Positions 2,803 to 41,351 of a stretch of DNA of 64,000 bases are shown here, in pieces. Source of the stretch: Paludibacteraceae bacterium (GTDB lineage: Bacteria > Bacteroidota > Bacteroidia > Bacteroidales > Paludibacteraceae); the NCBI GenBank assembly GCA_017547145.1, contig JAFYQJ010000017.1:57936-121935 (forward strand). The letters run 5' to 3'. Within the stretch, counting starts at the first letter, position 1; each line of letters begins with the position of its first letter. Under the pieces are notes generated by a model that saw only the letters and a program-made list of their open reading frames with translations, was not told the origin of the DNA and did not search any database. A program made the translations under genes and the position numbers.

Positions 2803-5046
2803 ATGTTTGTTATGGTGCTATTTGCAACATCTTGTAGTGTTGTGAAATATGTTCCAGAGGGCGAAACGTTACTAAATAGAAATCGTATAAAAATAAATAA
2901 ACACGACAAAATTAAGGTTGATGAACTAAAACCATATTTACATCAAACGCAAAATCAAGAGGTGTTAAGCTTTATGAAAGTAAAGCTTGGTGTTTATAGT
3001 TTGTCAGGTGCAGATACTACAAAGCGTGTTAATCGATGGTTGCGAAAGATTGGAGAACCACCTGTTGTTTATGACCCTTATTTAGTGGGGCGTTCGAGAA
3101 ATGAATTGCTTCGGCAATTAGCGAATAAAGGTTATATGCGAGCAACAGTGGATACGCTAACGAAAACAAAGCGTCGGCGAACGACTGTTTTTTATAATGT
3201 ACAACTCAATGAACCTTATATTATAAATAAATACGAATTAGATTTAAGCAACGACTCCGCATTGTATTTTGTAAATAATGCACGCGATTCGTTGAAGCGA
3301 ATACAAGAAGGTGATATTTTTGATTTGGCTATGATGGACGCAGAGCGAGTGCGTATAGCCACTATTTTGCGAAATAGAGGATATTATAATTTTAATAAAG
3401 ATATGCTTTATTTTGTAGCAGATAGTTCATCGCGTGTGCGAACTATAGATTTAAAGTTGGCTTTGCATCCGATGTATGAAAAAAATGATTCTTTATCTCC
3501 TTATAATAGAAAGCGTATCCGACAAGTTACTATAGTAATGGAAGATGATCCGAATGAAATAGAAAAACAATCGGATTTTACTGATACTGTTTGTATTGAT
3601 GGCTATTCTGTAGTTTATGGAGCAAAACGTTTTATTGATGCAAAAACACTAGTTTCTAAAGTTTTTGTTACACCGGGAAGATATTTTAGTGAGTTTATGG
3701 TAACTCAAACGCATAGTGCATTAAACTTCCTTTCTCCCATAAAATATGTTGATATAGAGTTTCGGCAAGTTAATCAAGAAGAAATTGATTGTCGTATTGT
3801 GGTTAATCCTGATCGTGTACACGTGGTTTCTGCAGAGTTGGAGGGGACTAATTCTGCAGGGAATATTGGAGTTGCTGGAAGTGTGGGGTATCAACATAAA
3901 AATATATTTCGTGGAGCTGAAACTTTTAAGTTTTCGGTACGTGGCGCTTACGAAACTATGGGACATATAGGTGATGCTTTTTATAGTTCAGTAGAATTAG
4001 GAGGTAATTTAGGTTTAGATTTCCCTAAATTTTTGTTCCCATTAGGAAATCGCTTTAAGAAAAAGTTAAGAGCAACAACCGAAATTTCTTTGGGCTATAA
4101 TTATCAAAAACGTCCTCAATATTCACGGAATATAGCTAATGCCAATTTTCGTTATGTGTGGAATTCGTATCGAAAACCAAAGTTGAAATATTCTTTGGAT
4201 TTATTTGACTTTAGTTATATTTATTTGCCTTGGATAACGCAAGAATTTAAAGATAAGTATTTAAGCCCATCATCTTCGTTGCGATATAGTTATGAAGATC
4301 ATTTTATTATGCGTATAGGTTTAGGTTTGACTTATACTACTAAACGAGAAAATCGTTTACAAGATTTTTATACGTTGCGGGCGAGAGTTCGTACGGCAGG
4401 AAATTTACTCTATGGTATAAGTAATATGATAAAGCAAGAAAAGGTAGATGGAGCATATCAGATTTTTAAAATACGATATGCACAATTTGCGAAAGCTGAT
4501 TTTGATTTTGCTTATACAAAAGTATTTGGAGAACGACATCAATTAGCATTTCATACTGCTTTGGGGGTTGCTTATCCTTATGGAAATGCAGATATTTTAC
4601 CTTTTGAAGAGCGTTATTATAGCGGTGGTGCAAATAGTGTTCGTGGGTGGTCAGTTCGTACTTTAGGCCCCGGGGAATTTAAAAATACTTCGGGAGATAT
4701 AGATTTTATGCGACAATCTGGTGATATAAAGTTTGATTTAAGTTGTGAATATCGAGTAAAATTGTTTTGGTTGTTAGAAGGTGCATTGTTTGTTGATGCT
4801 GGGAATATTTGGACGATAAAAGATTATGCCGACCAACCAGGTGGAGTTTTTCGCTTTAATCAATTTTATAAACAAATAGCATGTAGTTATGGGTTAGGAC
4901 TTCGTGCTGATTTTGATTTCTTTATTTTGCGTTTCGATTTTGGCTTCAAACTTTACGACCCAGCACGCACTGCGACTGAAAAATGGCGTACGCAAATAAC
5001 AAAAGATGATTTCGCATTTCATTTTGCAATAGGATATCCATTTTAA
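2803..5046 (+). CDS. Omp85-family outer membrane protein (BamA/TamA-like, surface antigen D15 domain)
   Basis: POTRA-like N-terminal part and a C-terminal beta-barrel with ERYYSGGANSVRGW and an aromatic C-terminus (GYPF). The track start 2731 (TTG) lies inside the promoter box TATATTTG, so ATG 2803 (or GTG 2767) is more likely. Confidence 0.8.
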   Translation: MFVMVLFATSCSVVKYVPEGETLLNRNRIKINKHDKIKVDELKPYLHQTQNQEVLSFMKVKLGVYSLSGADTTKRVNRWLRKIGEPPVVYDPYLVGRSRNELLRQLANKGYMRATVDTLTKTKRRRTTVFYNVQLNEPYIINKYELDLSNDSALYFVNNARDSLKRIQEGDIFDLAMMDAERVRIATILRNRGYYNFNKDMLYFVADSSSRVRTIDLKLALHPMYEKNDSLSPYNRKRIRQVTIVMEDDPNEIEKQSDFTDTVCIDGYSVVYGAKRFIDAKTLVSKVFVTPGRYFSEFMVTQTHSALNFLSPIKYVDIEFRQVNQEEIDCRIVVNPDRVHVVSAELEGTNSAGNIGVAGSVGYQHKNIFRGAETFKFSVRGAYETMGHIGDAFYSSVELGGNLGLDFPKFLFPLGNRFKKKLRATTEISLGYNYQKRPQYSRNIANANFRYVWNSYRKPKLKYSLDLFDFSYIYLPWITQEFKDKYLSPSSSLRYSYEDHFIMRIGLGLTYTTKRENRLQDFYTLRARVRTAGNLLYGISNMIKQEKVDGAYQIFKIRYAQFAKADFDFAYTKVFGERHQLAFHTALGVAYPYGNADILPFEERYYSGGANSVRGWSVRTLGPGEFKNTSGDIDFMRQSGDIKFDLSCEYRVKLFWLLEGALFVDAGNIWTIKDYADQPGGVFRFNQFYKQIACSYGLGLRADFDFFILRFDFGFKLYDPARTATEKWRTQITKDDFAFHFAIGYPF

Positions 5047-9888: not shown

Positions 9889-12800
9889 ATGGCAAAAATT
9901 TTAGGTCTTGACTTAGGAACAAACTCAATAGGATTAGCATTGAGAAACACCGATAATGGTAATACTTTAACCGAACAATTAGAATTGTTTAGTTCTATAA
10001 TATTCAAATCTGGTGTAGGTACAGACAAATCAGGTGAGTTCTCTTATGCAGCAGAAAGAACAAAGAAACGTTCAGCAAGAAGACTATATCAAGCACGCAA
10101 ATACAGACTTTGGGCAACTCTTGACTTATTGATAAAAGAGGGTTTTTGTCCTTTGTCAATGGAAGATTTAGATAAATGGCGTAGATATGATAAATCAAAA
10201 GGCTTAAAAAGAGAATACCCAATTCACGCAACAGAATTTGAACAATGGATTCGTTTAGATTTTGACGAATATAGTGATTATTCAAGTCCTTATCAGTTGC
10301 GTGCAGAGTTAATGCAAAAACAATTTGACTTCACAAACCAAACCGACAGATATAAATTAGGTAGAGCCTTATATCATATTGCACAACATAGAGGATTCAA
10401 AAGCAGTAAAGGAGAAACAATAAAAGACCTTGAGGATTCAGCAACAGAAACTGATGTTATTGAATTAAAGAAATCCGAAATCAAAAAGTCCGGCAAGTTA
10501 GTTGAATATATGACTAAACACAATTTAGCTACTGTTGGTTGTGCTTTTGCTCAATTAGAAAATGAAGGTGTTAGAATTAAAGCAAGTGAATATCAAGCAG
10601 TACGCTCTCAATATAAAGATGAAATCAAAGCAATATTTGAATTCCAAAACGGATTAGATACCTCATCGAAGTTTTACAAACGTATAACAAGCGAAAAGAA
10701 AGGAGAAGGTACAATTTTCTACAAACGACCTTTACGCTCACAAAAAGGTAATATTGGCAAATGTACCTTAGAGCCAAACAAGGCACGTTGCCCTATTAGC
10801 CACCCAGAGTTTGAAGAATACAGAGCATGGTGTTTTATAAACAATATCAAGTATAGAGAAAACACCAATTCAGATTGGCAAACTTTGTCCTTGAAATTGA
10901 AACAAGAACTCTTTAACGATAAATTCCTAAGGATTAAAAAGAGTTTCGCTTTCCAAGAAATCAGAGAGTGGTTAGAAAAGAAATTGTCTTTAGAGTTAAT
11001 GTGTGATAAGAAAAACGGAACTATCAACTACAAAGACAAAACAAGTGTTTCTTCATGTCCTATATCAGCAAGATTAAAAAACATTTTAGGTAATGATTAC
11101 AAGGAATGGAATCTTCAAACAAAAGCCGAAAGATTAAACAAGGAAACCGGAGAAATACATAATAAAAGTTATGACTATTTAGACCTTTGGCATATTGGTT
11201 TTTCTTTTGATGAATTGGATAATATTGTAGATATTGCAACCAACACCTTGCAATTTGACAACAAACAAACCAACGGATTAGCAAAGTTATCCACAGAGAT
11301 ACAACAAGGTTATGCTAATTTAAGTCTTAAAGCAATTAGAAACATTAGTCGTTTCTTAAAACAAGGCTTTATTTATTCCGATGCAGTTCTTTTAGCAAAA
11401 CTGCCTGATATATTTAAGGACAAATGGGAAGTTGAGAAAGAAACTATTATAGCTGAACTTTCAAATATAATTGAACAAAATCGCATAGAGTCTTGTGTAA
11501 AAAGAATAACTAATGAACTTATTCATATTTACAAATCATTAGACTATGAGGAAAGATTTGCAGAACACGATACTACATATATATTACAAGAGCAAGATTG
11601 TTTAGATATAGATAATGCTATTAAGAAATACTATTCAGAAAATAGAATAGAAATAAAAGATGTATCAGAACAAGAATACGTAAAAGCAGAAGTAACAAAA
11701 GAATATCAAAACTTTTTTAATAGTTCAAAGAGGGATTATTGTAAAATACCTAAACTATCGGAATCATTAGCGAAATATCTATCTGAAAACTATCAATACT
11801 TAAGCACTAAAGACCTAAAAAAGATTTACCACCCTTCAATGATAGATATTTATCCTATGGCTAAAATGGAAGAAGTTGAAGAAGGTAGATACTTAAAACA
11901 ATTAGGCAGTCCTGTTATACCAGCTTTGAAAAACCCAATGGCAATGCGAGTTTTACATACTTTACGTTCTCAAATAAACTCCTTAATCAAAGAAGGCAAA
12001 ATAGATGAACACACTCGCATAGTTGTAGAAACAGCAAGAGAGATAAATGATGCTAATATGCGTTGGGCAATAGAAAAGTATCAAAGAGAAAAAGAAGAAC
12101 AAAACAAGGGTATAGAAAAGAAATTAGAAGAATATGGTTATGATGCGACAGATTACAATATAAGAAAAACAAAGATTTGGTTAGATAATGAGGATATAAT
12201 TAAAGAAGATGGAACAGAAAAACCAAAACAATATAAAATATCAAAAATAGAAAAGGATAATACCTTTAAGCTAAACAAAATAAAATATGAGTTGTGGCAG
12301 GAACAAGGATTTAGATGTATTTATACCGGAGAACTTATTAAACTTTCTGATTTATTAAATGATGACAAAATAGATATAGAACACACTATTCCAAGAAGTA
12401 TATCTTTTGATGATTCTTTGTCAAATCAGACTGTATGCTTTAAGCATTTCAACCGAAATATCAAAAAGAATCAATATCCTACTCAACTAAGTAATTACGA
12501 AGAAATCCTCCAACGCATTAAACCGTGGATTGAAAAGGTTAAGCACTTGGAGGATATGGTGAAGTTTTGGAAAGATAAAGCAGAGGCAACTCAAGATAAA
12601 GAGAGAAAGGGCTATTGTATTCGTCAAAGACACTTATGGCAAATGGAACTTGATTATTGGAAAAAGAAAGTTAGCTATTTCACCGAAGAAGAGTTTTCTC
12701 AATCATACAGAAACAATCAACTAAACGATACAAGAATAATAACTAAATATGCTTTTCATTATTTGAAAACTCTATTCAATAGGGTTGATGTACAAAATGG

Positions 12801-14169
12801 TGCAGCTACTTCTGCTTTAAGAAAAATTGTTGAGGGAGAGGATGCCTATCTAAAGAAAGATAGAAGCAAACACTCACACCATGCAATAGATGCTACTATA
12901 CTAACACTAATTCCTTCTGCAGATAAGAGAAATGAATTATTAGAACGCTATTATAAAAAAGAAGAAGCAGAGAGAATAGAAAAAGGCAGTGAAGTCGCAC
13001 AAATACTTAAAGCTAATTTTGAGAAAGAGAAGACAAAACTTTTACCAAAAGGCGTTTCGGAAGTAAGAGGGTTTATAGAAAGCAATATACTTGTTAATCA
13101 TGTTTCCAAAGACCAAGCCTTAGTACCAGCAAAAAGAAGAAAAAGGGTAAGAGGTAAAATAGTCCCTTTATTAGATTCACAAGGTAAAATTGTGTATGAA
13201 AGAGATGAAGATGGAACTATAAAGAAAGATAAATTTGGTAGACCTATTCCACAAGCAAAACAATGGATTACTGGTGATTGCATTCGAGGACAATTACATA
13301 AAGATTCATTTTTCGGAGCAATCAAGCGGTATAATTCCGATGAAATAACAATGGTAATAAGAGTAAAAATTTCTGACTTAAAAGAAGAAAAATTATTAAA
13401 CGGCATCATTGATGACAATGTAAAATCATCAATCCAAAGAGTCATGAATAAACGTAAAGCAGAAGGCAAAAAATGGGAAGTTGCAATCAATGAACCAATA
13501 TGGATGCTAAATAAAGACGGGGTAGAAATAAAACAAGACAAAAACGGTAGACCTTTATCTCCAATCAGGCACGTGCGTTATAAAGCTAGAGCGGGGAAGG
13601 GGTGTATGACATTTGAGAAAACACTCAAAATAAAAGACCAAACATACAAATCTTCTAAAGAATATAAAAACACATACTATGTTCAAAACGAAGGCAATTA
13701 CCTATGTCTATTGTATGAAGGAATACATAATAGCAAAATTGATCGACAATTTAGACTGATAAATTATTTTGAAGTGGTAAAGTTAAAAATCAAGGATGCA
13801 AACGAATTATGGCAAGAGCCGTATTTCAAAACATTAAGAAATGGAAATAAACAATATAATTTGTCTGCTATCATCAAAGTTGATACAAAAGTTCTTATGT
13901 GGAATAAAACTCCTGATGAGTTATTTGAACTACCAAAAAAAGAATTGTATAAAAGATTATTTGTTGTGGAGAAGTTCAATGAGCCCGGTTCTATATATGT
14001 ATATTTAAAGAACCATCTTGAAGCAAATAAAACAGTTAAGTATCAAACCTCTTTTGATTCAAATTCTTATCAGGGAGCATTAATGTTAACTGCAAATAAT
14101 TTGAATTGTTTGATTGAAGGACGAGATTTTGAAATTACACCTATAGGAGAAATAAAATTCTATGATTAA
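9889..14169 (+). CDS. cas9: Cas9, type II-C (Bacteroidetes large subgroup, 1426 aa)
   Basis: RuvC-I MAKILGLDLGTNSIGLAL. Arg-rich bridge helix KKRSARRLYQARKYR. RuvC-II RIVVETAREI. HNH DIEHTIPRSISFDDSLSNQTVC...NRNIKKN. RuvC-III HSHHAIDATIL. Followed by cas1-cas2 only. Confidence 0.95.
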   Translation: MAKILGLDLGTNSIGLALRNTDNGNTLTEQLELFSSIIFKSGVGTDKSGEFSYAAERTKKRSARRLYQARKYRLWATLDLLIKEGFCPLSMEDLDKWRRYDKSKGLKREYPIHATEFEQWIRLDFDEYSDYSSPYQLRAELMQKQFDFTNQTDRYKLGRALYHIAQHRGFKSSKGETIKDLEDSATETDVIELKKSEIKKSGKLVEYMTKHNLATVGCAFAQLENEGVRIKASEYQAVRSQYKDEIKAIFEFQNGLDTSSKFYKRITSEKKGEGTIFYKRPLRSQKGNIGKCTLEPNKARCPISHPEFEEYRAWCFINNIKYRENTNSDWQTLSLKLKQELFNDKFLRIKKSFAFQEIREWLEKKLSLELMCDKKNGTINYKDKTSVSSCPISARLKNILGNDYKEWNLQTKAERLNKETGEIHNKSYDYLDLWHIGFSFDELDNIVDIATNTLQFDNKQTNGLAKLSTEIQQGYANLSLKAIRNISRFLKQGFIYSDAVLLAKLPDIFKDKWEVEKETIIAELSNIIEQNRIESCVKRITNELIHIYKSLDYEERFAEHDTTYILQEQDCLDIDNAIKKYYSENRIEIKDVSEQEYVKAEVTKEYQNFFNSSKRDYCKIPKLSESLAKYLSENYQYLSTKDLKKIYHPSMIDIYPMAKMEEVEEGRYLKQLGSPVIPALKNPMAMRVLHTLRSQINSLIKEGKIDEHTRIVVETAREINDANMRWAIEKYQREKEEQNKGIEKKLEEYGYDATDYNIRKTKIWLDNEDIIKEDGTEKPKQYKISKIEKDNTFKLNKIKYELWQEQGFRCIYTGELIKLSDLLNDDKIDIEHTIPRSISFDDSLSNQTVCFKHFNRNIKKNQYPTQLSNYEEILQRIKPWIEKVKHLEDMVKFWKDKAEATQDKERKGYCIRQRHLWQMELDYWKKKVSYFTEEEFSQSYRNNQLNDTRIITKYAFHYLKTLFNRVDVQNGAATSALRKIVEGEDAYLKKDRSKHSHHAIDATILTLIPSADKRNELLERYYKKEEAERIEKGSEVAQILKANFEKEKTKLLPKGVSEVRGFIESNILVNHVSKDQALVPAKRRKRVRGKIVPLLDSQGKIVYERDEDGTIKKDKFGRPIPQAKQWITGDCIRGQLHKDSFFGAIKRYNSDEITMVIRVKISDLKEEKLLNGIIDDNVKSSIQRVMNKRKAEGKKWEVAINEPIWMLNKDGVEIKQDKNGRPLSPIRHVRYKARAGKGCMTFEKTLKIKDQTYKSSKEYKNTYYVQNEGNYLCLLYEGIHNSKIDRQFRLINYFEVVKLKIKDANELWQEPYFKTLRNGNKQYNLSAIIKVDTKVLMWNKTPDELFELPKKELYKRLFVVEKFNEPGSIYVYLKNHLEANKTVKYQTSFDSNSYQGALMLTANNLNCLIEGRDFEITPIGEIKFYD

Positions 14170-15097
14170 ACGCACGCTTTATTTCAGTAATCCCGCTTAT
14201 TTGTCTTTAAGGAATCAACAATTAGTAATAAAACTTCCGGAGGTGGAAACAAACGCTTCGCTTCCGGAAAGTTTCAAAGCAGATGCTACAAAGACAATTC
14301 CGATAGAAGACATAGGGATAGTAGTCTTAGACAACAAACAAATAACTATTACACAAGGAGTTTTAGAAGCCTTGTTAGAAAACAATTGTGCAGTTATCAC
14401 TTGTAACGAAAGCCACCTTCCAATTGGTATGCACTTGCCTTTGGTTGGCAACACCACACAAACCGAACGCATGCGTTATCAAATAGAAGCCTCTTTGCCT
14501 TTGAAAAAACAACTATGGCAACAAACCATAATTGCAAAAATACAAAACCAAGCCGCTGTCTTAAAACAAATGAGAGGAACAGAGGTTCGCAATATGCAAA
14601 AGTGGGCAACAGAAGTAAAAAGTGGAGATAGTGACAACCTTGAAGCAAGAGCAGCGGTTTATTATTGGCAAAACGCCTTTCCGATGATAGAAAACTTTAC
14701 ACGTTCAAGAGAGGGAGAGTCACCAAATAACCTTTTAAACTATGGATATGCCATACTAAGAGCAATAGTTGCAAGAGCCTTAGTGTCAAGTGGCTTGCTT
14801 ACAACCTTAGGCATACATCATAGAAACAAATACAACGCCTTTTGTTTGGCAGATGATGTAATGGAGCCTTATCGCCCATACGTTGATAAACTCGTAATGC
14901 AACTCTATGATAAATACCCCGATACACAAGAATTGACAAAAGAACTAAAAGCCGAGCTTTTGCAAATACCTGTATTAGATGTAACGATTAACAACAAACG
15001 AAGCCCATTGATGATTGCAGTTAGCACCACAACCTCTTCTTTGCAAAAGTGTTACGCGGGCGAATTACGCAAAATTATTTATCCAATAATACAATAG
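14162..15097 (+). CDS. cas1: Cas1 (type II)
   Basis: NLLNYGYAILRAIVARALVSSGLLTTLGIHHRNKYNAFCLADDVMEPYRPYVD is a Cas1 signature. It overlaps the cas9 stop by 8 nt. Confidence 0.93.
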   Translation: MIKRTLYFSNPAYLSLRNQQLVIKLPEVETNASLPESFKADATKTIPIEDIGIVVLDNKQITITQGVLEALLENNCAVITCNESHLPIGMHLPLVGNTTQTERMRYQIEASLPLKKQLWQQTIIAKIQNQAAVLKQMRGTEVRNMQKWATEVKSGDSDNLEARAAVYYWQNAFPMIENFTRSREGESPNNLLNYGYAILRAIVARALVSSGLLTTLGIHHRNKYNAFCLADDVMEPYRPYVDKLVMQLYDKYPDTQELTKELKAELLQIPVLDVTINNKRSPLMIAVSTTTSSLQKCYAGELRKIIYPIIQ

Positions 15098-15106
15098 ACT
15101 CTTAAA

Positions 15107-15439
15107 GTGCAACGATTTAGCGAATACAGAATTATGTGGGTGATGGTGTTATTTGATTTGCCAACCGAGACAAAGAAAGACAAGAAAGCTCATGCGAAAT
15201 TCCGTAAGCAATTATTAGAAGACGGATTTACGATGTTTCAGTTTTCTATCTATATACGCCATTGTGCCAGCAAGGAAAACGCTAATGTGCATATCAAAAG
15301 GGTAAAAAACTTATTGCCTGAATATGGAAACGTAGGAATAATCTGCATAACCGATAAACAATTTGGTGAAATAGAACTTTATCATTGTGGAAAGCAACAA
15401 AAAACTCAAACTAGTGGCCAACAACTAGAACTTTTTTAA
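15107..15439 (+). CDS. cas2: Cas2 (type II)
   Basis: [47 protein letters not shown] is a typical Cas2 ferredoxin-fold N-terminus. GTG start at 15107 (an ATG alternative lies at MWVMV). Confidence 0.9.
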
Positions 15440-35241: not shown

Positions 35242-37203
35242 ATGGAAGATAATAAAAATAAGGTTGGGTTGCCAGAAAATGCGACTCGTGAGTTGAAAGA
35301 TGGCGAAAAGTATAATCCGATTTTGCCACCAAACAAATGTGTGCCTGAAATTAGTTTTTATTCGGTAGCATGTGGGATTGTAATGGCCGTTTTGTTTTCG
35401 GCTGCTGCTGCATATTTGGGGTTAAAGGTTGGTCAAGTGTTTGAAGCTGCTATTCCTATTGCGATTATTGCTGTTGGAATTTCGAGTGCGACGCGTAGAA
35501 AAAATGCTCTTGGCGAAAATGTTATTATTCAGTCGATAGGAGCAAGTTCCGGAGTTATTGTAGCAGGTGCTATTTTTACGTTACCAGCTCTTTATATTTT
35601 GCAAGCTAAATACCCAGAGATAACGGTTAGTTTTATGCAAGTATTTTTGAGTTCTTTGTTAGGTGGAATTTTGGGTATTTTGTTTTTAATTCCATTTCGT
35701 AAATACTTTGTGAGCGATATGCACGGAAAATATCCGTTTCCGGAAGCTACGGCCACAACGCAGGTGCTTGTCTCTGGCGAACAAGGTGGAAGTCAAGCGA
35801 AACCGCTTATTTGGGCTGCGGCCATTGGCGGTTTGTACGATTTTGTTGTGGCAACTTTTGGTGCATGGAGCGAAACACTTACCTCGCGTATAATTCCATG
35901 GGGTGAATCGATAGCTCAAAAAGCAAAATTGACTTTTTCTATTAATACGGGTGCGGCTGTTCTCGGTCTTGGCTATATAGTTGGGTTAAAGTATAGTTTA
36001 ATTATTTGTGCAGGTTCGTTGTTTGTATGGTGGTTTATAGTTCCTTTGCTTGGAATGACAACGCAAGACTCTGTAATGTTGAGTCAAATGGATCCTGATT
36101 GGATTTTTGCTAACTATGCACGCTATATTGGTATTGGGGCTATTGCTATGGCTGGTGTTATTGGAATTGTAAAATCGTGGGGTGTGATAAAAGGTGCTGT
36201 TGGTTTGGCGAGTAAGGAACTTGGAAGCAAAGGAAAGGCTGTGGCACAAGCACTTCCTCGCACAGAGCGTGATTTGTCGATGAAGTTTGTGGTGTTGTCA
36301 ATTGTTGCAGCTCTTATCATTACATTCTTGTTTTTCTATTTTGGGGTGATAAATAATTTGTTCCAATCGCTTATAGCATTTCTTGTGGTGGCTGTTATTG
36401 CCTTTTTGTTTACTACGGTTGCTGCAAATGCTATTGCTATAGTAGGCTCGAATCCTGTTTCGGGTATGACGCTAATGACGCTCATTATTGCTTCGGTAAT
36501 ATTGGTGGCTGTTGGTTTGAAGGGTACAAGCGGAATGGTGGCCGCTATGGTAATTGGTGGCGTTGTTTGTACGGCGTTGTCGATGGCAGGAGGTTTTGTT
36601 ACCGACCTAAAAATAGGTTATTGGATAGGGAATACACCTGCAAAACAAGAAACTTGGAAATTCCTTGGTACGTTAGTTTCGGCAGCTACTGTAGGCGGAG
36701 TTATTATTATTTTGAATAAAACGTATGGCTTTACGGGCGACAATGCACTTGTAGCTCCTCAAGCTAATGCTATGGCTGCTGTGATAGAGCCGCTCATGAT
36801 GGGCCAAGGTGCTCCTTGGTTGCTTTATGGCGTAGGTGCAGTGTTGGCGTTGTTGCTCAACTTGCTTGGCGTTCCGGTTTTGGCATTTGCTTTGGGTATG
36901 TTTATACCATTGTCGTTGAATACGCCGCTTGTGGTGGGTGGATTGATTAGCTGGTATGTATCGTCGCGAACAAAAGATGCAGAATTGAATAATGCTCGCC
37001 AAGAAAAAGGTACGCTCATAGCATCAGGTTTGATTGCCGGTGGAGCTTTGATGGGGGTGGTGAGTGCCGCACTTAAGTTTGCCGATGTAGACCTATATAT
37101 GCCACAGTGGGCGGAAAGCAGCAGTGCTGCTATTTGTGGTGTGGTAGCTTATTTGTTGTTGATTGCTTATTTTGTTTGTGCAAGTATGCGTACAAAGAAA
37201 TAA
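35242..37203 (+). CDS. OPT-family oligopeptide transporter
   Basis: 653 aa with many TM segments and OPT-like conserved blocks (PFPEATA, GLKYSL). Confidence 0.8.
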   Translation: MEDNKNKVGLPENATRELKDGEKYNPILPPNKCVPEISFYSVACGIVMAVLFSAAAAYLGLKVGQVFEAAIPIAIIAVGISSATRRKNALGENVIIQSIGASSGVIVAGAIFTLPALYILQAKYPEITVSFMQVFLSSLLGGILGILFLIPFRKYFVSDMHGKYPFPEATATTQVLVSGEQGGSQAKPLIWAAAIGGLYDFVVATFGAWSETLTSRIIPWGESIAQKAKLTFSINTGAAVLGLGYIVGLKYSLIICAGSLFVWWFIVPLLGMTTQDSVMLSQMDPDWIFANYARYIGIGAIAMAGVIGIVKSWGVIKGAVGLASKELGSKGKAVAQALPRTERDLSMKFVVLSIVAALIITFLFFYFGVINNLFQSLIAFLVVAVIAFLFTTVAANAIAIVGSNPVSGMTLMTLIIASVILVAVGLKGTSGMVAAMVIGGVVCTALSMAGGFVTDLKIGYWIGNTPAKQETWKFLGTLVSAATVGGVIIILNKTYGFTGDNALVAPQANAMAAVIEPLMMGQGAPWLLYGVGAVLALLLNLLGVPVLAFALGMFIPLSLNTPLVVGGLISWYVSSRTKDAELNNARQEKGTLIASGLIAGGALMGVVSAALKFADVDLYMPQWAESSSAAICGVVAYLLLIAYFVCASMRTKK

Positions 37204-37226
37204 CGCAATTTTACAAAAAAATAAAA

Positions 37227-37260
37227 AGGCATTTAGTCAATTCGATTAAATGCCTTTTTT
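37227..37260. terminator. bidirectional intrinsic terminator
   Basis: 9-bp stem aggcattta / taaatgcct with an 11-nt loop. There is an A-run upstream and a T-run downstream, so it can stop the OPT gene (+) and any leftward transcript through the mini-array. Confidence 0.65.
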
Positions 37261-37290
37261 ATATCAAATAATAGATATGAATTTTTTTTA

Positions 37291-37524
37291 TGATTAGCAT
37301 TATTTAAAAATAAATGCTTTTACAGCCGTAATCCTTTCGGAGACGTTGTAGGACAAGTTGGATATCCATTTAAAAATAAATGCTTTTACAGCTTGTCCGA
37401 ATTTAGGACCTTTTCAAGCATCGTTGGATATCCATTTAAAAATAAATGCTTTTACAGCATGTGTGGTATAAGTTGTTGAAATCCAACGATTATATAAAAA
37501 ATAAATGAATTTTTTGAGTGCTTG
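37291..37524. CRISPR. mini CRISPR array (type V-associated): 36-nt repeats x3 with a 66-nt period, two bona fide 30-nt spacers plus a trailing spacer-like segment and a repeat remnant
   Basis: GTTGGATATCCATTTAAAAATAAATGCTTTTACAGC at 37357-37392 and 37423-37458. The copy at 37291-37326 shares only the 3' 25 nt. Spacers are at 37327-37356 and 37393-37422. 37459-37524 carries a repeat-like core AAAAATAAATG that is out of register. Confidence 0.8.
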
Positions 37525-37668
37525 AATATTGTAGAAACCATTGTTGCTACATATTTTTTAAAATTCAAACCTCAAACTAAGGCGTTCCAACACGCCCTTC
37601 CCAAAAAGGGAATAAAAAAATCATATCTAAAATTTCAAAGATCTCTGTATGTATAGGGCAAAGATAGC
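37525..37668 (-). ncRNA. candidate tracrRNA / guide-scaffold region of the type V locus (strand and ends uncertain)
   Basis: -7 box TATCTTTG (37666->37659) lies 2 nt after the effector stop. Three hairpins follow: ttccc-aaaaa-gggaa (37598-37612), ggcgt-tccaac-acgcc (37581-37596) and tgtagaaac-catt-gttgctaca (37530-37551). No ORF. Confidence 0.3.
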
Positions 37669-38397
37669 CTATTTTTTCTTTCTATCGACAACTTTTTTGC
37701 TCAAAGCAATGTTTCGTGCTGCATTCCAGTCGGCGTTAATGCCTTTGTATGTGCCATCTTTTTCTTGCTTGCCTTTCCCTTTTGTGCAATCAGGATTTTT
37801 ACAAATAAATATCGACTGGCTTATACGCTGTCCCTTTTCTCTGTGTCCGCAGAAACTGCAAGTCTGGCTTGTGTGATATGGGTCAATGTATCTTACTTCA
37901 ATTCCCGTAGCATTGGCCTTGTACTCAATCATTGTCTGCAATTCAAAGTACGACCAATAACGAAGAATGAACTTGTAGCCCTCATCCACTTCGTCGTTTT
38001 TGTTTCGACCAAATCCTGTGAGTCGTTCCATCTGAATTACGCCTGCTTTGTTTTTCAGGGCAAACTCAATAATTGATTTGCTAAAAATATGGTTTTGCAA
38101 GTGTACCCAATTTTTCTCCTTGTCTTGCAATCGCTTGAAAGCTTGCAATTTCTGATTCCTACCGTGTCCACCATTGGTAGTGTGGAGTAGGTTGCGTTGC
38201 AACTCCCTCTTTTGAGCCTGCATTCGCATACGCATATTCAGGAATTGCTCGCGTGAGCCGATGCTCATACCGCCATACTCATTGTCGTTGAGTGCTGCAT
38301 AAAGTGGTACGTTGATACCCAAGTCAACACCCACAACCCTCTCGGGGTTGAGATTATTTTGCACCTTTGGAATCTTTACAACCAGCAACAAAAACAT
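37669..38397 (-). CDS. C-terminal part of the Cas12f-like effector: split RuvC nuclease plus zinc-ribbon (TNB) domain
   Basis: VVGVDLGINVP (RuvC-I), GGHGRNQKL, AGVIQMERL (RuvC-II), ILRYWSYFELQTMIEYKA, CSFCGH...CKNPDC, and GINADWNAARNIA (RuvC-III). Confidence 0.8.
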   Translation of the reverse strand: MFLLLVVKIPKVQNNLNPERVVGVDLGINVPLYAALNDNEYGGMSIGSREQFLNMRMRMQAQKRELQRNLLHTTNGGHGRNQKLQAFKRLQDKEKNWVHLQNHIFSKSIIEFALKNKAGVIQMERLTGFGRNKNDEVDEGYKFILRYWSYFELQTMIEYKANATGIEVRYIDPYHTSQTCSFCGHREKGQRISQSIFICKNPDCTKGKGKQEKDGTYKGINADWNAARNIALSKKVVDRKKK

Positions 38398-38412
38398 TTT
38401 GTTATTTTTTGC

Positions 38413-39117
38413 CTAATTACCAACATCGTATTGTCCACTTAAAATACGCTCTACTATTTCACGATTATTACTTCTATCTCTGCCGAAGTTTAAATCCCAC
38501 TCCAGGCCTTTTGGAAATTTAACATAAATGTTATTAGGGTTGTTATCACGTCTGAAAATCCCTAATGTTTTATGCCCTGGACCAATTTTTATTCTGAAGG
38601 GTATAGGCATCCCTTTGCGATAATTTGGAACAGAACATTCTCCCTTTTTTATATCAATGCGTTTTTCGGTGTACTTTGATTTTTCTAAAATTAGACAATC
38701 CAAAATTTCGCCTGGAATCACATCTTTAAACTCTTTTCTAATCGTTTTTAGAATGGTATTGTGTTCTTGTGAAATCCCAAGAAATTCTTTTTTCTGTTCA
38801 GTGAAAAGCTTTTCTAATTCTTTCTTTTCTTGTTTTAGATTGTCTATTTCTTCTTGTGAAAGTTTGTCTCGTTTGCAGTGTTTGAGAATCTTTTCAATTT
38901 CTTGATATCTTGGGTTTGTAGCATACATACGAGATTCATACTCATCATTAAGAAAATAATGAGACATTATGCGGTTTGCTGCTTTATATAAATTGTCGTT
39001 TATCTCATTCCAAATGCGGTACTCTTCTTGGTTGCGAAGATTGGCTTCTTCGCTATCTCCGTGACGATGTAGATGTACCTCAATTTTTCTAGTAATGCAA
39101 GTAAATTCTGTTGCCAT
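38413..39117 (-). CDS. N-terminal part of the Cas12f-like effector (WED/REC-like region with a coiled-coil insertion)
   Basis: 234 aa. KGMPIPFRIKIGPG...IYVKFPKGLEWDLNFGRD...ILSGQYDVGN resembles the wedge strands of Cas14/Cas12f that precede RuvC-I. Confidence 0.6.
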   Translation of the reverse strand: MATEFTCITRKIEVHLHRHGDSEEANLRNQEEYRIWNEINDNLYKAANRIMSHYFLNDEYESRMYATNPRYQEIEKILKHCKRDKLSQEEIDNLKQEKKELEKLFTEQKKEFLGISQEHNTILKTIRKEFKDVIPGEILDCLILEKSKYTEKRIDIKKGECSVPNYRKGMPIPFRIKIGPGHKTLGIFRRDNNPNNIYVKFPKGLEWDLNFGRDRSNNREIVERILSGQYDVGN

Positions 39118-39138
39118 TTTTTTATATGATGAAATAAA

Positions 39139-39243
39139 CTATTTGAAACACATTGTTATACTAACCATAAATAGTATAAAAATACCAACGATAAAGCAGA
39201 TGGCTGCTATTATTTTTAAGGTGTTTTTTTGCTTTTTATCCAT
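39139..39243 (-). CDS. possible 34-aa single-TM peptide upstream of the effector
   Basis: ATG..TAG ORF MDKKQKNTLKIIAAICFIVGIFILFMVSITMCFK. A TAACTTTG box (39278->39271) lies upstream, and the ORF stops 21 nt before the effector ATG. It is below the ORF-track size cutoff. Confidence 0.25.
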   Translation of the reverse strand: MDKKQKNTLKIIAAICFIVGIFILFMVSITMCFK

Positions 39244-39404
39244 ATTGAAATAGTTATTTAGTTTACCCAACAAAGTTAATTTTTTTTATAGATAATGCGA
39301 CTTTTTTTGTTCTGTAATTCTTCGCATAATATTGTGCGTATTTTGGGCTATACCTTCGAAAAGTTTTCCTATTTTTGCAAGATAAAGTGTATGCATACAA
39401 ATAT

Positions 39405-41351
39405 ATGAAAGGGAAAATAAGTCATTTAATAGAAAGTATCAGGAGTTGGAAATATCTACCTCGCTGGGGAGTGTTGGTAATAGATTTATTTATTACGCTA
39501 TTTTCGTTCTTTTTGGTCTATTATTTGTGTTTAAGACCATTTTCGGTGAATTTTATTAACTTGTTTTCATTGAATTATCAGTCTATTGGGCTTTTCCCCG
39601 ATTTGCTGATAGTGATGTTGGTGCAAGTAATAAGTTTTATTTGTTTTCGTACATATTCGGGCATTTTACGCTACTCGGCATATATAGATGCATTGAAGTT
39701 GCTCTTGTCGGTGGCATTTACAATGGCATCGTTGTTTTTGGTGCATGGGCTTTCTGTTATCTACAATGAATTTAATCCGTCGTTTCCTCCTCTTTTCTTG
39801 ACATTAGAAATTTTGTTGTTTTCGTTGCTGAATTTTGTGTTTTTGTTTTCGGTACGATTGGTTGTGAAATTGCTTTTCGAACGTTTGGAGTTGGAGTCTG
39901 GGCCTTACAAAAATGTGATGATTTATGGAGCAAAGCAAGCTGGTGTTGCTATTGCAAAATCGTTGAAAATGACGCCTAACAAATATAATTTAGTAGGGTT
40001 TATAGATGATGATAATAATCACGTTCAGTTGATGGGCGTTAAAGTTTATTCGTTTGACAACGTTGAATCGATTTTAGCATATAAAAAGGTGAAAGCAGTG
40101 ATTGTTTCACCATTGAAAATGCAAGAAAAGAATATAACAAAGTCGTTGGAGTTTTTATTGGAACGAGGCGTTCAGGTGCTTACAACTTCTATTTTGTCGG
40201 AATATAATCAAGGTGCAAAAGTAGATGTCCGCTCAATAAAAAATATTCAGATAGAAGATTTGTTAGAACGTAAAGAAATAAAAATAGACAAGCAGGAAAT
40301 TTCGGCACAATTAAAGGATAAAACAATTTTGATAACGGGTTCGGCAGGTTCAATTGGTAGCGAAATCGTTCGTCAAGTTGCACGTTTTGAGCCAAAACTG
40401 ATAATTGTGCTTGACCAATCTGAAACAGCGTTGTTTGATATTAAAAATGAAATTAAGCAAACATTTGAAAATGTGAGTTTTGTCCCATTTTTGGCTGATA
40501 TTCGTAATCAGGAGCGAATGGAGTATGTTGTAAAAACATATCGTCCAGATATTATTTATCATGCAGCAGCATACAAGCATGTGCCAATGTTGGAAGATAA
40601 TCCTGTAGAGGCAGTACAAACCAATGTGCTAGGTACAAAAAATATAGCTGATTTGGCAGTGAAATACAATGTTTCAAAATTTGTGATGATTTCAACCGAT
40701 AAGGCTGTGAATCCTGCTAATATAATGGGTGCATCGAAACGTATCGCAGAAATTTATGTGCAATCTTATTTCAAGAAATTACAACGAGAAGGGAATGTGA
40801 TTACCAATTTTATAACGACACGTTTTGGCAATGTGCTTGGATCAAATGGCTCTGTAATACCAATTTTTAAGCGTCAAATAGAAGAGGGAGGACCAGTAAA
40901 GGTAACTCACCCTGATATAATTCGTTATTTTATGACTATACCTGAAGCTTGTAATTTGGTGTTGGAAGCAAGTACAATAGGTAAGGGTGGAGAGATTTTT
41001 ATTTTCGACATGGGAGTGCCTGTTAAAATCGATGATTTAGCAAAGAAAATGATTCGTTTGGCTGGATATACGCCTAATGTTGATATAAAGGTAGAATATA
41101 CGGGATTGCGTCCGGGCGAAAAACTGTATGAAGAATTGTTGAATGTGAAGGAGATAACCAAAGAAACTTCGCATGAAAAAATTATGATTGCCAATGTACA
41201 AGAATATGATTATGACGTAATCTCGAAAGAAATAAATACACTAATTGGATTAAGTCGAGAGTTTAATGATTTTCCTATAGTGGCAAAAATGAAAGAAATA
41301 GTACCTGAATTTAGAAGCAAAAATTCAGTTTACGAAAGTTTAGATAAGTAA
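39405..41351 (+). CDS. CapD/PglF/WbpM-like membrane-anchored NDP-sugar 4,6-dehydratase (polysaccharide biosynthesis)
   Basis: N-terminal TM segments, Rossmann motif ITGSAGSIGSE, and YKHVP/STDKAV catalytic region. The track start 39375 (TTG) overlaps the TATTTTTG promoter box, so ATG 39405 is preferred. Confidence 0.85.
   Translation: MKGKISHLIESIRSWKYLPRWGVLVIDLFITLFSFFLVYYLCLRPFSVNFINLFSLNYQSIGLFPDLLIVMLVQVISFICFRTYSGILRYSAYIDALKLLLSVAFTMASLFLVHGLSVIYNEFNPSFPPLFLTLEILLFSLLNFVFLFSVRLVVKLLFERLELESGPYKNVMIYGAKQAGVAIAKSLKMTPNKYNLVGFIDDDNNHVQLMGVKVYSFDNVESILAYKKVKAVIVSPLKMQEKNITKSLEFLLERGVQVLTTSILSEYNQGAKVDVRSIKNIQIEDLLERKEIKIDKQEISAQLKDKTILITGSAGSIGSEIVRQVARFEPKLIIVLDQSETALFDIKNEIKQTFENVSFVPFLADIRNQERMEYVVKTYRPDIIYHAAAYKHVPMLEDNPVEAVQTNVLGTKNIADLAVKYNVSKFVMISTDKAVNPANIMGASKRIAEIYVQSYFKKLQREGNVITNFITTRFGNVLGSNGSVIPIFKRQIEEGGPVKVTHPDIIRYFMTIPEACNLVLEASTIGKGGEIFIFDMGVPVKIDDLAKKMIRLAGYTPNVDIKVEYTGLRPGEKLYEELLNVKEITKETSHEKIMIANVQEYDYDVISKEINTLIGLSREFNDFPIVAKMKEIVPEFRSKNSVYESLDK

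What the first reader, a model, noticed from the sequence alone, without database searches (positions are those of the whole stretch)
37525..37668. Hairpin-rich 145-nt non-coding segment between effector and array: tracrRNA or omega/reRNA-like scaffold candidate
Two nt after the effector stop there is a TATCTTTG -7 box on the effector strand (37666->37659). The predicted minus-strand RNA contains three hairpins (UUCCC-UUUUU-GGGAA, GGCGU-GUUGGA-ACGCC, UGUAGCAAC-AAUG-GUUUCUACA) and then runs into the degenerate repeat and the array. The 6-nt loop GUUGGA equals the first 6 nt of the plus-strand repeat, so it is complementary to the last 6 nt (UCCAAC) of the repeat in minus orientation. The same GUUGGAU heptamer recurs on the minus strand inside 'spacer 3' (37482-37488). 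A scaffold fused in cis to the first guide, followed by further repeat-spacer units, is the architecture expected of an intermediate between TnpB omega-RNA and a split tracrRNA:crRNA system. Cas12f-class effectors are known to need a tracrRNA, and none is obvious elsewhere in the locus.
Basis: inference. Interest (0 to 1): 0.6.

Follow-up and report, generated by a model that had tools for sequence, protein, structure and literature searches.

The report
Cas12f tracrRNA gene, already characterised clade
The hairpin-rich gap between the small CRISPR nuclease gene and its array encodes that nuclease's helper RNA (tracrRNA); it is 86% identical to a published, experimentally validated Cas12f tracrRNA from gut Bacteroidales, so it is ordinary, and here its nuclease gene is broken.

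Summary
The interpretation "tracrRNA" is right. "omega-RNA-like cis-fused intermediate" is not supported.

- **Effector.** The minus-strand protein is a roughly 75%-identical ortholog of Al3Cas12f (PDB 9NZO/9NZR).
- **tracrRNA.** Window 37641->37497 (minus) is 86% identical to the validated Cas12f-MG119-3 tracrRNA and 76% identical to that of Al3Cas12f. It folds the same way.
- **Conservation.** In 25 related loci, 90.9% of cells pair, 26 of 52 pairs show compensatory changes, and 0 of 500 shuffles reach this.
- **GUUGGA loop.** It sits on a 5-bp stem and is complementary to the repeat's last 6 nt. This geometry forms the repeat-pairing pseudoknot in solved Cas12f guide RNAs.
- **"Spacer 3".** It is a conserved leader element, not a spacer.
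- **Orientation.** Spacer 1 matches a viral contig at 29 of 30 positions, next to a TTT PAM.
- **State of the locus.** The effector carries an in-frame TAG and a 4-codon deletion, so the locus is probably inactive.
- **Side observation.** A co-evolving 22-nt inverted repeat brackets the tracrRNA plus array.

The parts
37659..37666 (-). Candidate tracrRNA promoter -7 box, TATCTTTG (TAnnTTTG), 2 nt after the cas12f stop codon
   Evidence: Sequence. A TAnnTTTG box lies 2-3 nt after the stop codon in 24 of 26 related loci. That TAnnTTTG is the Bacteroidetes -7 consensus is my own knowledge, not tested here.
37614..37640 (-). 5' region of the tracrRNA ('stem 0', UUGAAAU...AUUUCAA in relatives). It is also the left copy (IR-L, 37614-37635) of an inverted repeat that brackets the tracrRNA and array.
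   Evidence: Alignment A1 and the repeat finder pair I2. The region is present in the 152-nt Al3Cas12f sgRNA2 and absent from the 134-nt sgRNA1; activity was confirmed for both versions.
37598..37612 (-). Hairpin 1, UUCCC-UUUUU-GGGAA
   Evidence: All 5 pairs show changes on both sides across the 25 loci (helix 2). The equivalent in Al3Cas12f is CCCC-UUCG-GGGG.
37581..37596 (-). Hairpin 2, GGCGU-GUUGGA-ACGCC. The 6-nt loop (37586-37591) is complementary to the repeat's 3' end, UCCAAC, and is the pseudoknot anti-repeat.
   Evidence: The stem shows compensatory changes (helices 3-4). Loop-to-repeat-end pairing holds in 98% of cells but is nearly invariant, so it gives no covariation evidence (helix 5). 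The same 5-bp stem with a 6-nt loop forms 'AR:R 1' in Un1Cas12f (PMC8053092).
37514..37577 (-). Long stem 2 (37564-37577 paired with 37514-37527) enclosing hairpin 3 (37530-37551)
   Evidence: MFE folds. Six pairs in helix 6 and eight in helix 7 change on both sides. A U-G pair kept in 23 of 25 loci would be A-C on the other strand, which argues for a minus-strand RNA.
37502..37510 (-). Main anti-repeat, AUUCAUUUA, pairing with repeat bases UAAAUGGAU. It is preceded by an A-run extending to 37515.
   Evidence: Cofold. It covaries with the repeat in 4 pairs (helix 8). The published sgRNAs place the GAAA linker exactly at this junction.
37496..37501 (-). Conserved U-run after the anti-repeat. 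It may be the tracrRNA 3' end, but this is unproven.
   Evidence: Nearly invariant T columns in A1. The terminator scan finds no canonical terminator here.
37459..37495 (-). It holds GUUGGAUUUCAAC (37487->37475); relatives have GTTGGAAT-N7-ATTCCAAC.
   Evidence: Leader sequences and alignment A2. The proposed hairpin is 83% paired but shows no covariation beyond shuffles.
37291..37458 (-). CRISPR array: repeats at 37458->37423 and 37392->37357, spacers at 37422->37393 and 37356->37327, and a degenerate terminal repeat at 37326->37291
   Evidence: Spacer 1 matches IMG/VR contig L074 at 29 of 30 positions, with TTT immediately 5'.
37266..37287 (+). IR-R, an inverted copy of the tracrRNA 5' motif, lying just beyond the terminal repeat
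   Evidence: Pair I2: 22 nt, 86% complementary. It sits in the same position in about 17 of 24 loci and co-evolves with IR-L.
37669..39117 (-). cas12f gene, interrupted by an in-frame TAG at 38415->38413 and a 4-codon deletion
   Evidence: (E = 2.8e-220 to 9NZO).

Best explanation
The segment is the tracrRNA gene of a type V-F (Cas12f) CRISPR locus of the Alistipes/Bacteroidales clade, which includes Al1/Al2/Al3Cas12f, Ti1Cas12f1 and Cas12f-MG119-3.

**Inferred, not shown:** the RNA is made from the minus strand. It probably starts a few bases downstream of the conserved TATCTTTG box at 37666->37659 and runs to about 37497.

**Shown by homology and covariation:** the RNA folds into the following elements.
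- A dispensable 5' hairpin.
- Hairpin 1.
- A 5-bp hairpin whose GUUGGA loop pairs with the last six bases of the crRNA repeat (pseudoknot).
- A long stem enclosing hairpin 3.
- A 3' anti-repeat (AUUCAUUUA) that pairs with repeat bases UAAAUGGAU.

**Taken from the published ortholog:** the tracrRNA:crRNA duplex is bound by a Cas12f homodimer, which cuts DNA next to a T-rich 5' PAM.

**State of this genome:** the RNA gene and two-spacer array look intact, but cas12f carries an in-frame stop and a small deletion. The system is therefore probably no longer active.
For: - **Effector identity.** The read-through effector matches Al3Cas12f (9NZO/9NZR) over its full length, E = 2.8e-220. It has the TnpB/Cas12f TNB domain.
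- **Match to validated guide RNAs.** Published guide RNAs for this clade are in Supplementary Data 1 of PMC13186708. The window RNA is identical at 117 of 136 positions to the MG119-3 tracrRNA and at 99 of 131 to Al3Cas12f sgRNA2. Its predicted sgRNA-like fold has the same helices.
- **Specificity.** A profile built without the window and its nearest relative hits only 37641->37497 in the 64-kb window, E = 1.5e-30. There is a single copy in the genome.
- **Conserved position.** The same RNA lies downstream of the effector, on the same strand, in 32 related loci.
- **Covariation.** 90.9% of cells are paired, 26 of 52 pairs change on both sides, and 0 of 500 shuffles reach this. Slid controls give 29-52%.
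- **Anti-repeat.** It covaries with the repeat (helix 8).
- **Pseudoknot geometry.** It equals 'Stem 3 loop / AR:R 1' of Un1Cas12f; SpCas12f1, UnCas12f1, AsCas12f1 and CnCas12f1 share a conserved pseudoknot core.
- **Promoter box.** It is conserved in 24 of 26 loci.
- **Orientation.** Spacer 1 has a 29/30 protospacer with a TTT 5' flank in a viral contig. This agrees with the T-rich PAM reported for the clade.
Against: - There is no transcript evidence.
- No canonical intrinsic terminator follows the anti-repeat.
- The pseudoknot pairing is nearly invariant, so covariation cannot confirm it.
- Al3Cas12f tracrRNAs were predicted from covariance models built on Cas12f-MG119-2 and -3, and the MG119-3 tracrRNA by mapping the MG119-2 tracrRNA. 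They were validated as designed sgRNAs, not by native RNA-seq.
- The cognate effector is interrupted, so present-day function in this genome is doubtful.
Confidence: 0.9

Rival explanations
1. One reading: an omega/reRNA-like scaffold fused in cis to a first guide. Under this view the scaffold, a degenerate repeat and 'spacer 3' form one RNA, and the system is an evolutionary intermediate between TnpB omega-RNA and split tracrRNA:crRNA (TranC-like).
For: - The anti-repeat region keeps the 66-nt register of the array (37489 = 37423 + 66). It resembles the 5' half of the repeat: CAUUUAUUUUU is shared.
- It is followed by a spacer-length stretch of 29-30 nt before repeat 1.
- No terminator is detectable between the scaffold and the array.
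Against: - 'Spacer 3' is conserved across the clade, whereas true spacers differ even between the nearest relatives.
- The pseudo-repeat ends in ...AUAUAAUC or GAUAUAAC rather than UCCAAC, so it cannot form the pseudoknot.
- Published orthologs work with a tracrRNA plus a repeat-derived crRNA.
- The RNA starts after the stop codon rather than overlapping the ORF.
- The locus is syntenic between the window and L035, with the same flanking genes and no transposase-sized ORF nearby; L009 has the same layout of a 486-aa gene followed by a convergent 653-aa ORF.
- The pseudo-spacer has no convincing target in its own genome.
Confidence: 0.04
2. It is the same tracrRNA, but made as part of one precursor. 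Transcription starts at the conserved box, reads through the anti-repeat and the array to the bidirectional terminator at 37223-37259, and the precursor is closed by pairing of the 5' motif (IR-L) with its inverted copy after the array (IR-R). The precursor is then processed.
For: - No terminator or TAnnTTTG box is evident in the leader.
- IR-R lies just after the terminal repeat in about 17 of 24 loci, although the search space was 2.5 kb.
- Similarity between IR-L and IR-R within a locus exceeds similarity between loci: mean score 23.4 against 16.9, with 0 of 10,000 random re-pairings reaching the observed mean.
- The MFE fold of 37652->37212 closes on this helix, followed by the terminator hairpin.
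Against: - This rests on prediction only.
- Mismatches between the two copies are U-U, not wobble-compatible, so conservation at the DNA level (a protein-binding site, or an inversion or recombination site) explains the data equally well.
- IR-R is absent from 5-7 loci, including the two most divergent.
- The 5' motif is dispensable for sgRNA activity in vitro.
Confidence: 0.25
3. The segment is only the 3' UTR and terminator region of cas12f, and the hairpins have no guide-RNA role.
For: It lies directly downstream of the stop codon and is rich in hairpins.
Against: - There is no hairpin-plus-U-run terminator.
- The anti-repeat covaries with the repeat.
- The sequence is 86% identical to an RNA that supports cleavage in vitro.
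Confidence: 0.02

Closest known systems
Cas12f-MG119-3 and Al3Cas12f (MG119-28) tracrRNA/sgRNA; Guan et al., Nat Struct Mol Biol 2026, PMC13186708; PDB 9NZO/9NZR
   Same: - It has the same position, between cas12f and the array, on the same strand.
- It is 86% (MG119-3) and 76% (Al3Cas12f) identical in sequence.
- It has the same helices, the same GUUGGA loop, the same UCCAAC repeat end and the same anti-repeat junction.
- The effector is about 75% identical over its full length.
- The PAM side is T-rich.

   Different: - The effector here is interrupted by a TAG and a 4-codon deletion.
- Its residues 25-200 are unusually diverged.
- The array has only two spacers.
- Hairpin 3 and the distal part of stem 2 differ in sequence, but the changes are compensatory.
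Un1Cas12f1 (Cas14a1) sgRNA; Xiao et al. 2021, PMC8053092; also the SpCas12f1, AsCas12f1 and CnCas12f1 guide RNAs (PMC12255294)
   Same: - There are two repeat-pairing sites.
- One is the 6-nt loop of a 5-bp hairpin, which pairs with the repeat's 3' end (pseudoknot, 'AR:R 1').
- The other is a 3'-terminal anti-repeat duplex.
   Different: - The sequences are unrelated.
- This clade's scaffold is shorter; the Al3Cas12f guide RNA is described as compact and lacks stem 4.
- The effectors are only distantly related (E = 1e-25 to 1e-36).
TnpB omega-RNA/reRNA and TranC intermediates; Jin et al., Cell 2025, cited through PMC13565253
   Same: The effector belongs to the TnpB/Cas12f superfamily (NF040570, E = 2.2e-40). 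The scaffold lies 3' of the nuclease gene.
   Different: - There is no overlap with the ORF.
- There are no transposon ends and no TnpA.
- The chromosomal locus is fixed and syntenic.
- The guide comes from a CRISPR array whose spacers vary between loci.
- Orthologs have a validated split RNA.

Membership tests
Cas12f (type V-F) tracrRNA, Al3Cas12f/MG119-3 clade | Encoded next to a cas12f gene and its CRISPR array, on the crRNA strand | tested here: met
   The order is cas12f stop (37669), RNA (37652-37497), array (37458-37291), all on the minus strand. The orientation is confirmed by a protospacer with a TTT PAM.
Cas12f (type V-F) tracrRNA, Al3Cas12f/MG119-3 clade | Sequence homology to an experimentally validated tracrRNA of the clade | tested here: met
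   Identical at 117 of 136 positions to MG119-3 and 99 of 131 to Al3Cas12f. The leave-out profile gives E = 1.5e-30 with a single hit.
Cas12f (type V-F) tracrRNA, Al3Cas12f/MG119-3 clade | 3' anti-repeat complementary to the repeat, covarying with it | tested here: met
   A 9-bp duplex. Helix 8 is 97% paired, with 4 pairs changed on both sides.
Cas12f (type V-F) tracrRNA, Al3Cas12f/MG119-3 clade | Internal hairpin loop that pairs with the repeat's 3' end (pseudoknot) | tested here: inconclusive
   There is a perfect 6-bp complementarity, conserved in 25 loci (98% of cells). It is nearly invariant, so there is no covariation. The geometry equals that seen in Un1Cas12f. Formation of the pseudoknot itself cannot be tested with these tools.
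Cas12f (type V-F) tracrRNA, Al3Cas12f/MG119-3 clade | Conserved scaffold helices supported by compensatory changes | tested here: met
   26 of 52 pairs change on both sides; 0 of 500 shuffles reach this; slid controls give 29-52% paired.
Cas12f (type V-F) tracrRNA, Al3Cas12f/MG119-3 clade | Expressed as a discrete small RNA that binds the effector | not testable with these tools
No native RNA-seq for this clade was found in the paper.
Cas12f (type V-F) tracrRNA, Al3Cas12f/MG119-3 clade | Intact cognate Cas12f partner. This bears on present activity, not on the identity of the RNA. | tested here: not met
   There is an in-frame TAG at 38415->38413 and a 4-residue deletion in the conserved GNSSIQE(S/T)KN motif. 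The syntenic ortholog in L035 is an intact 486-aa protein.
TnpB omega-RNA / reRNA | Scaffold overlaps the 3' end of the nuclease ORF and ends at a transposon right end, with the guide taken from flanking DNA | tested here: not met
   The conserved RNA begins after the stop codon. It is followed by a repeat-spacer array whose spacers differ between loci.
TnpB omega-RNA / reRNA | IS200/IS605 or IS607 context (TnpA, LE/RE), mobile and multicopy | tested here: not met
   There is a single copy in the genome. The same flanking genes occur in the window and L035, and L009 has the same ORF layout. No transposase-sized ORF is adjacent. No dedicated TnpA profile search was run.
TranC (transposon-CRISPR intermediate) | Effector can use both a transposon-derived single reRNA and a CRISPR tracrRNA:crRNA | not testable with these tools
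   The definition is taken from PMC13565253. Testing it needs biochemistry. The conserved 'pseudo-spacer' and the lack of a UCCAAC handle argue against a cis guide.

The most novel reading that the evidence does not exclude
In most members of this Cas12f clade, the tracrRNA and the whole CRISPR array may form one transcription unit. It would be closed by a co-evolving ~22-nt inverted repeat: the tracrRNA 5' motif at 37614-37635 and its inverted copy at 37266-37287, just past the terminal repeat. Between the anti-repeat and repeat 1 lies a fossil 'repeat 0 / spacer 0' unit, in which the anti-repeat sits in the 5' half of a degenerate repeat. The inverted repeat would act either as an RNA processing stem or as a DNA inversion (phase-variation) site. 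Either role would be an undescribed layer of biogenesis or control for a type V-F system.
Probability: 0.2. Interest if true: 0.45.

Novelty: already known. Interest (0 to 1): 0.15.

Why it matters
The finding itself matters little. The clade's effector, guide RNA, PAM and structure are published and already used for genome editing, and this copy has a broken nuclease gene.

The analysis does settle three things for this window. It fixes the array's orientation. It shows that the 'degenerate repeat' and 'spacer 3' are the anti-repeat and a conserved leader. It removes the case for a TnpB-to-CRISPR intermediate.

Two points might interest specialists:
- A co-evolving inverted repeat brackets the tracrRNA and array.
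- The anti-repeat sits in register with the array, as if derived from a repeat. That bears on how tracrRNAs arise, but it needs transcript data.

Tried and rejected
- **Rfam.** A scan of 36000-40000 at E <= 10 found no tracrRNA family and only weak chance hits.
- **Promoter and terminator scan.** The sigma-70 promoter and intrinsic-terminator scan of 37200-37720 found nothing. The promoter scan does not cover Bacteroidetes promoters.
- **Leader hairpin** (GTTGGAAT-N7-ATTCCAAC). RNAalifold predicted no structure. My imposed helix is 83% paired but shows no covariation beyond shuffles. I therefore do not claim an RNA structure, only a conserved sequence element.
- **Pseudo-spacer as a self-targeting guide.** The best genomic match (2 mismatches in 20 nt) lies inside a coding gene with no T-rich flank, so I rejected it.
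- **Spacer targets.** Neither spacer matched the GenBank phage collection. Spacer 2 had no exact 20-nt match in IMG/VR.
- **DNA inversion.** All 32 related loci have the tracrRNA in the same orientation relative to cas12f, so assemblies give no support for inversion.
- **Literature.** Sharrar et al. 2023 (Al1/Al2/Ti1Cas12f1) is not in the held library.
- **Own correction.** The correct position is 38413-38415.

Full report
**What is there**

On the minus strand, two same-frame ORFs (39117->38416 and 38397->37672) are separated by an in-frame TAG at 38415->38413. Together they encode a 482-residue protein.
- The C-terminal half carries the Cas12f1-like TNB domain and matches the TnpB/Cas12f models.
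- Read through, the protein aligns end to end with the 'Cas12f effector' chains of PDB 9NZO and 9NZR, E = 2.8e-220.
- Those entries are Al3Cas12f, a Cas12f from an Alistipes metagenome contig. It was characterised structurally and biochemically by Guan et al., NSMB 2026 (PMC13186708).
- Related published enzymes are Cas12f-MG119-3, Al1/Al2Cas12f1 and Ti1Cas12f1.

**The observation**

- The TATCTTTG box lies 2 nt after the stop codon.
- The three hairpins are present.
- The loop GUUGGA is the exact complement of the repeat's last six bases.

The minus strand folds much better than shuffled sequence (z = -3.7) and better than the plus strand.

**Identity**

Supplementary Data 1 of the paper lists the sgRNAs tested for this clade.
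- The window's minus strand from about 37641 to 37503 is identical at 117 of 136 positions to the MG119-3 tracrRNA, and at 99 of 131 to the Al3Cas12f sgRNA2 tracrRNA.
- Joined to the repeat's last 16 nt by GAAA, as in the published designs, it gives the same predicted helices as the Al3Cas12f sgRNA.
- The published junction shows where the main anti-repeat is. AUUCAUUUA (37510->37502) pairs with repeat bases UAAAUGGAU.

**Conservation**

I fetched 71 loci encoding relatives of the effector.
- A profile of the RNA finds it downstream of the effector, on the same strand, in 32 of them. It finds one copy in the window's own genome.
- A profile built without the window and its nearest relative hits only 37641->37497 in the 64-kb window, E = 1.5e-30.
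- I aligned 25 distinct loci, each as tracrRNA plus the last 24 nt of its own repeat. The proposed structure is 90.9% paired. Of 52 pairs, 26 change on both sides. No shuffle of 500 reaches any of the five measures. Sliding the partners drops pairing to 29-52%.
- Hairpins 1 and 3 and the distal part of the long stem are rich in compensatory changes. The anti-repeat covaries with the repeat.
- A U-G pair kept in 23 of 25 loci fits only a minus-strand RNA.

**The GUUGGA loop**

Loop-to-repeat-end pairing is kept in 98% of cells, but both sides are nearly invariant. Covariation therefore says nothing about it.

The geometry is a 5-bp stem with a 6-nt loop complementary to the repeat's 3' end. This is exactly what the Un1Cas12f structure paper describes as Stem 3, whose loop forms 'AR:R 1' and positions the guide (PMC8053092). 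The SpCas12f1 paper shows a pseudoknot in its sgRNA and reports that the core containing it is conserved in the UnCas12f1, AsCas12f1 and CnCas12f1 guide RNAs.

It is the second of two repeat-pairing sites, not the only one.

**Promoter and ends**

- A TAnnTTTG box lies 2-3 nt after the stop codon in 24 of 26 loci, including the most divergent ones. The consensus itself is from my own knowledge.
- A second conserved motif, gTTCTTTGAAAT, is the 5' arm of a 5' hairpin. That hairpin is present in the 152-nt Al3Cas12f sgRNA and absent from the 134-nt version; activity was confirmed for both.
- A conserved U-run follows the anti-repeat, but no canonical terminator does.

**Array and orientation**

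Read on the minus strand, the array has two perfect 36-nt repeats, two 30-nt spacers and a degenerate terminal repeat. Spacer 1 matches an IMG/VR viral contig at 29 of 30 positions, with ...TATTATTT directly 5'. This agrees with the T-rich 5' PAM reported for the clade and settles the orientation.

**The cis-fused / omega-like idea**

The 66-nt register is indeed kept, and the anti-repeat resembles the 5' half of the repeat. That resemblance is expected, because both must pair with the same 3' half of the repeat. The idea fails on the following points.
- The 29-30 nt after it ('spacer 3') are conserved across the clade, as GTTGGAAT-N7-ATTCCAAC. True spacers differ even between the window and its nearest relative.
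- The pseudo-repeat lacks UCCAAC.
- The RNA does not overlap the ORF.
- The locus is syntenic with L035, which shares both flanking genes, and L009 has the same ORF layout. There is nothing transposon-like nearby.
- The pseudo-spacer has no credible target in its own genome.

I put this reading at about 4%.

**State of the locus**

- Compared with the intact syntenic 486-aa ortholog in L035, the window protein has the TAG and a 4-residue deletion in a conserved motif.
- It is only 35-60% identical over residues ~25-200, but about 90% identical elsewhere.
- The RuvC and zinc-finger motifs are present.
- The gene is most likely a pseudogene, while the RNA gene is still intact.

**Side observations**

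1. A 22-nt inverted copy of the tracrRNA 5' motif lies just past the terminal repeat (37266-37287).
   - The same arrangement occurs in about 17 of 24 loci, at 38-83 nt after the last full repeat, although the search space was 2.5 kb.
   - The two copies are more alike within a locus than between loci; none of 10,000 random re-pairings reached the observed mean.
   - A hypothetical read-through transcript is predicted to close on this helix.
   - An RNA processing stem, a protein-binding site and a DNA inversion site all remain possible. Assemblies show no inverted version.
2. The leader palindrome shows no covariation.
3. A type II Cas9-Cas1-Cas2 operon lies 23 kb away.

**Verdict**

This is a bona fide, already characterised kind of element: the tracrRNA of the Alistipes-type Cas12f clade. 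It is correctly spotted but mis-bounded, and here it sits in a decaying locus. Interest is low.

Noticed in passing
window 37266-37287 (+) with 37614-37635 (-): A 22-nt inverted repeat (86% complementary) brackets the tracrRNA and the whole array. It is present in the same position in about 17 of 24 related loci. The two copies co-evolve within loci (none of 10,000 random re-pairings reached the observed mean). Its function is unknown; candidates are an RNA closing stem, a protein-binding site or a DNA inversion site.
   Followed up: partly
window 37459-37495 (-): The leader between the anti-repeat and repeat 1 is conserved across the clade (T-run, GATATA, then GTTGGAAT-N7-ATTCCAAC). Its two arms copy the tracrRNA pseudoknot loop and the repeat's 3' end. 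In the window lineage it has degenerated to GUUG-GAUUU-CAAC. There is no covariation support for an RNA hairpin.
   Followed up: partly
window 38413-38415 and 38416-39117 (-): cas12f has an in-frame TAG and a 4-codon deletion in the conserved GNSSIQE(S/T)KN motif. Residues ~25-200 (REC region) are only 35-60% identical to the intact syntenic ortholog in L035, against about 90% elsewhere. This points to relaxed selection or recombination.
   Followed up: partly
window 9889-15439 (+): A type II CRISPR operon: Cas9 (1426 aa), a NMENI-type Cas1 and Cas2. These are the only adaptation genes found in the genome. The Cas12f array has no cas1/cas2 of its own, yet its spacers differ between close relatives.
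   Followed up: partly
L074 6995-7024 (IMG/VR contig IMGVR_UViG_3300022661_003948): A protospacer for window spacer 1 (29 of 30 identical) with a 5' flank of TATTATTT. The array therefore once recorded a virus, and the PAM side is T-rich.
   Followed up: yes
L007 about 3790-3815, L013 about 2620-2645, and L037: Some relatives carry a ~23-nt extra hairpin (GGCCUCAAUUUUGAGGCUUAGCC) inserted in the 3' arm of the pseudoknot hairpin. L037 has a rearranged 5' half. This is natural variation at the core of the scaffold.
   Followed up: no
window 37223-37259: A strong bidirectional terminator hairpin (AAAAAGGCAUUUA...UAAAUGCCUUUUU, flanked by T- and A-runs) is shared by the convergent 653-aa transporter-like gene and the distal end of the array.
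   Followed up: no
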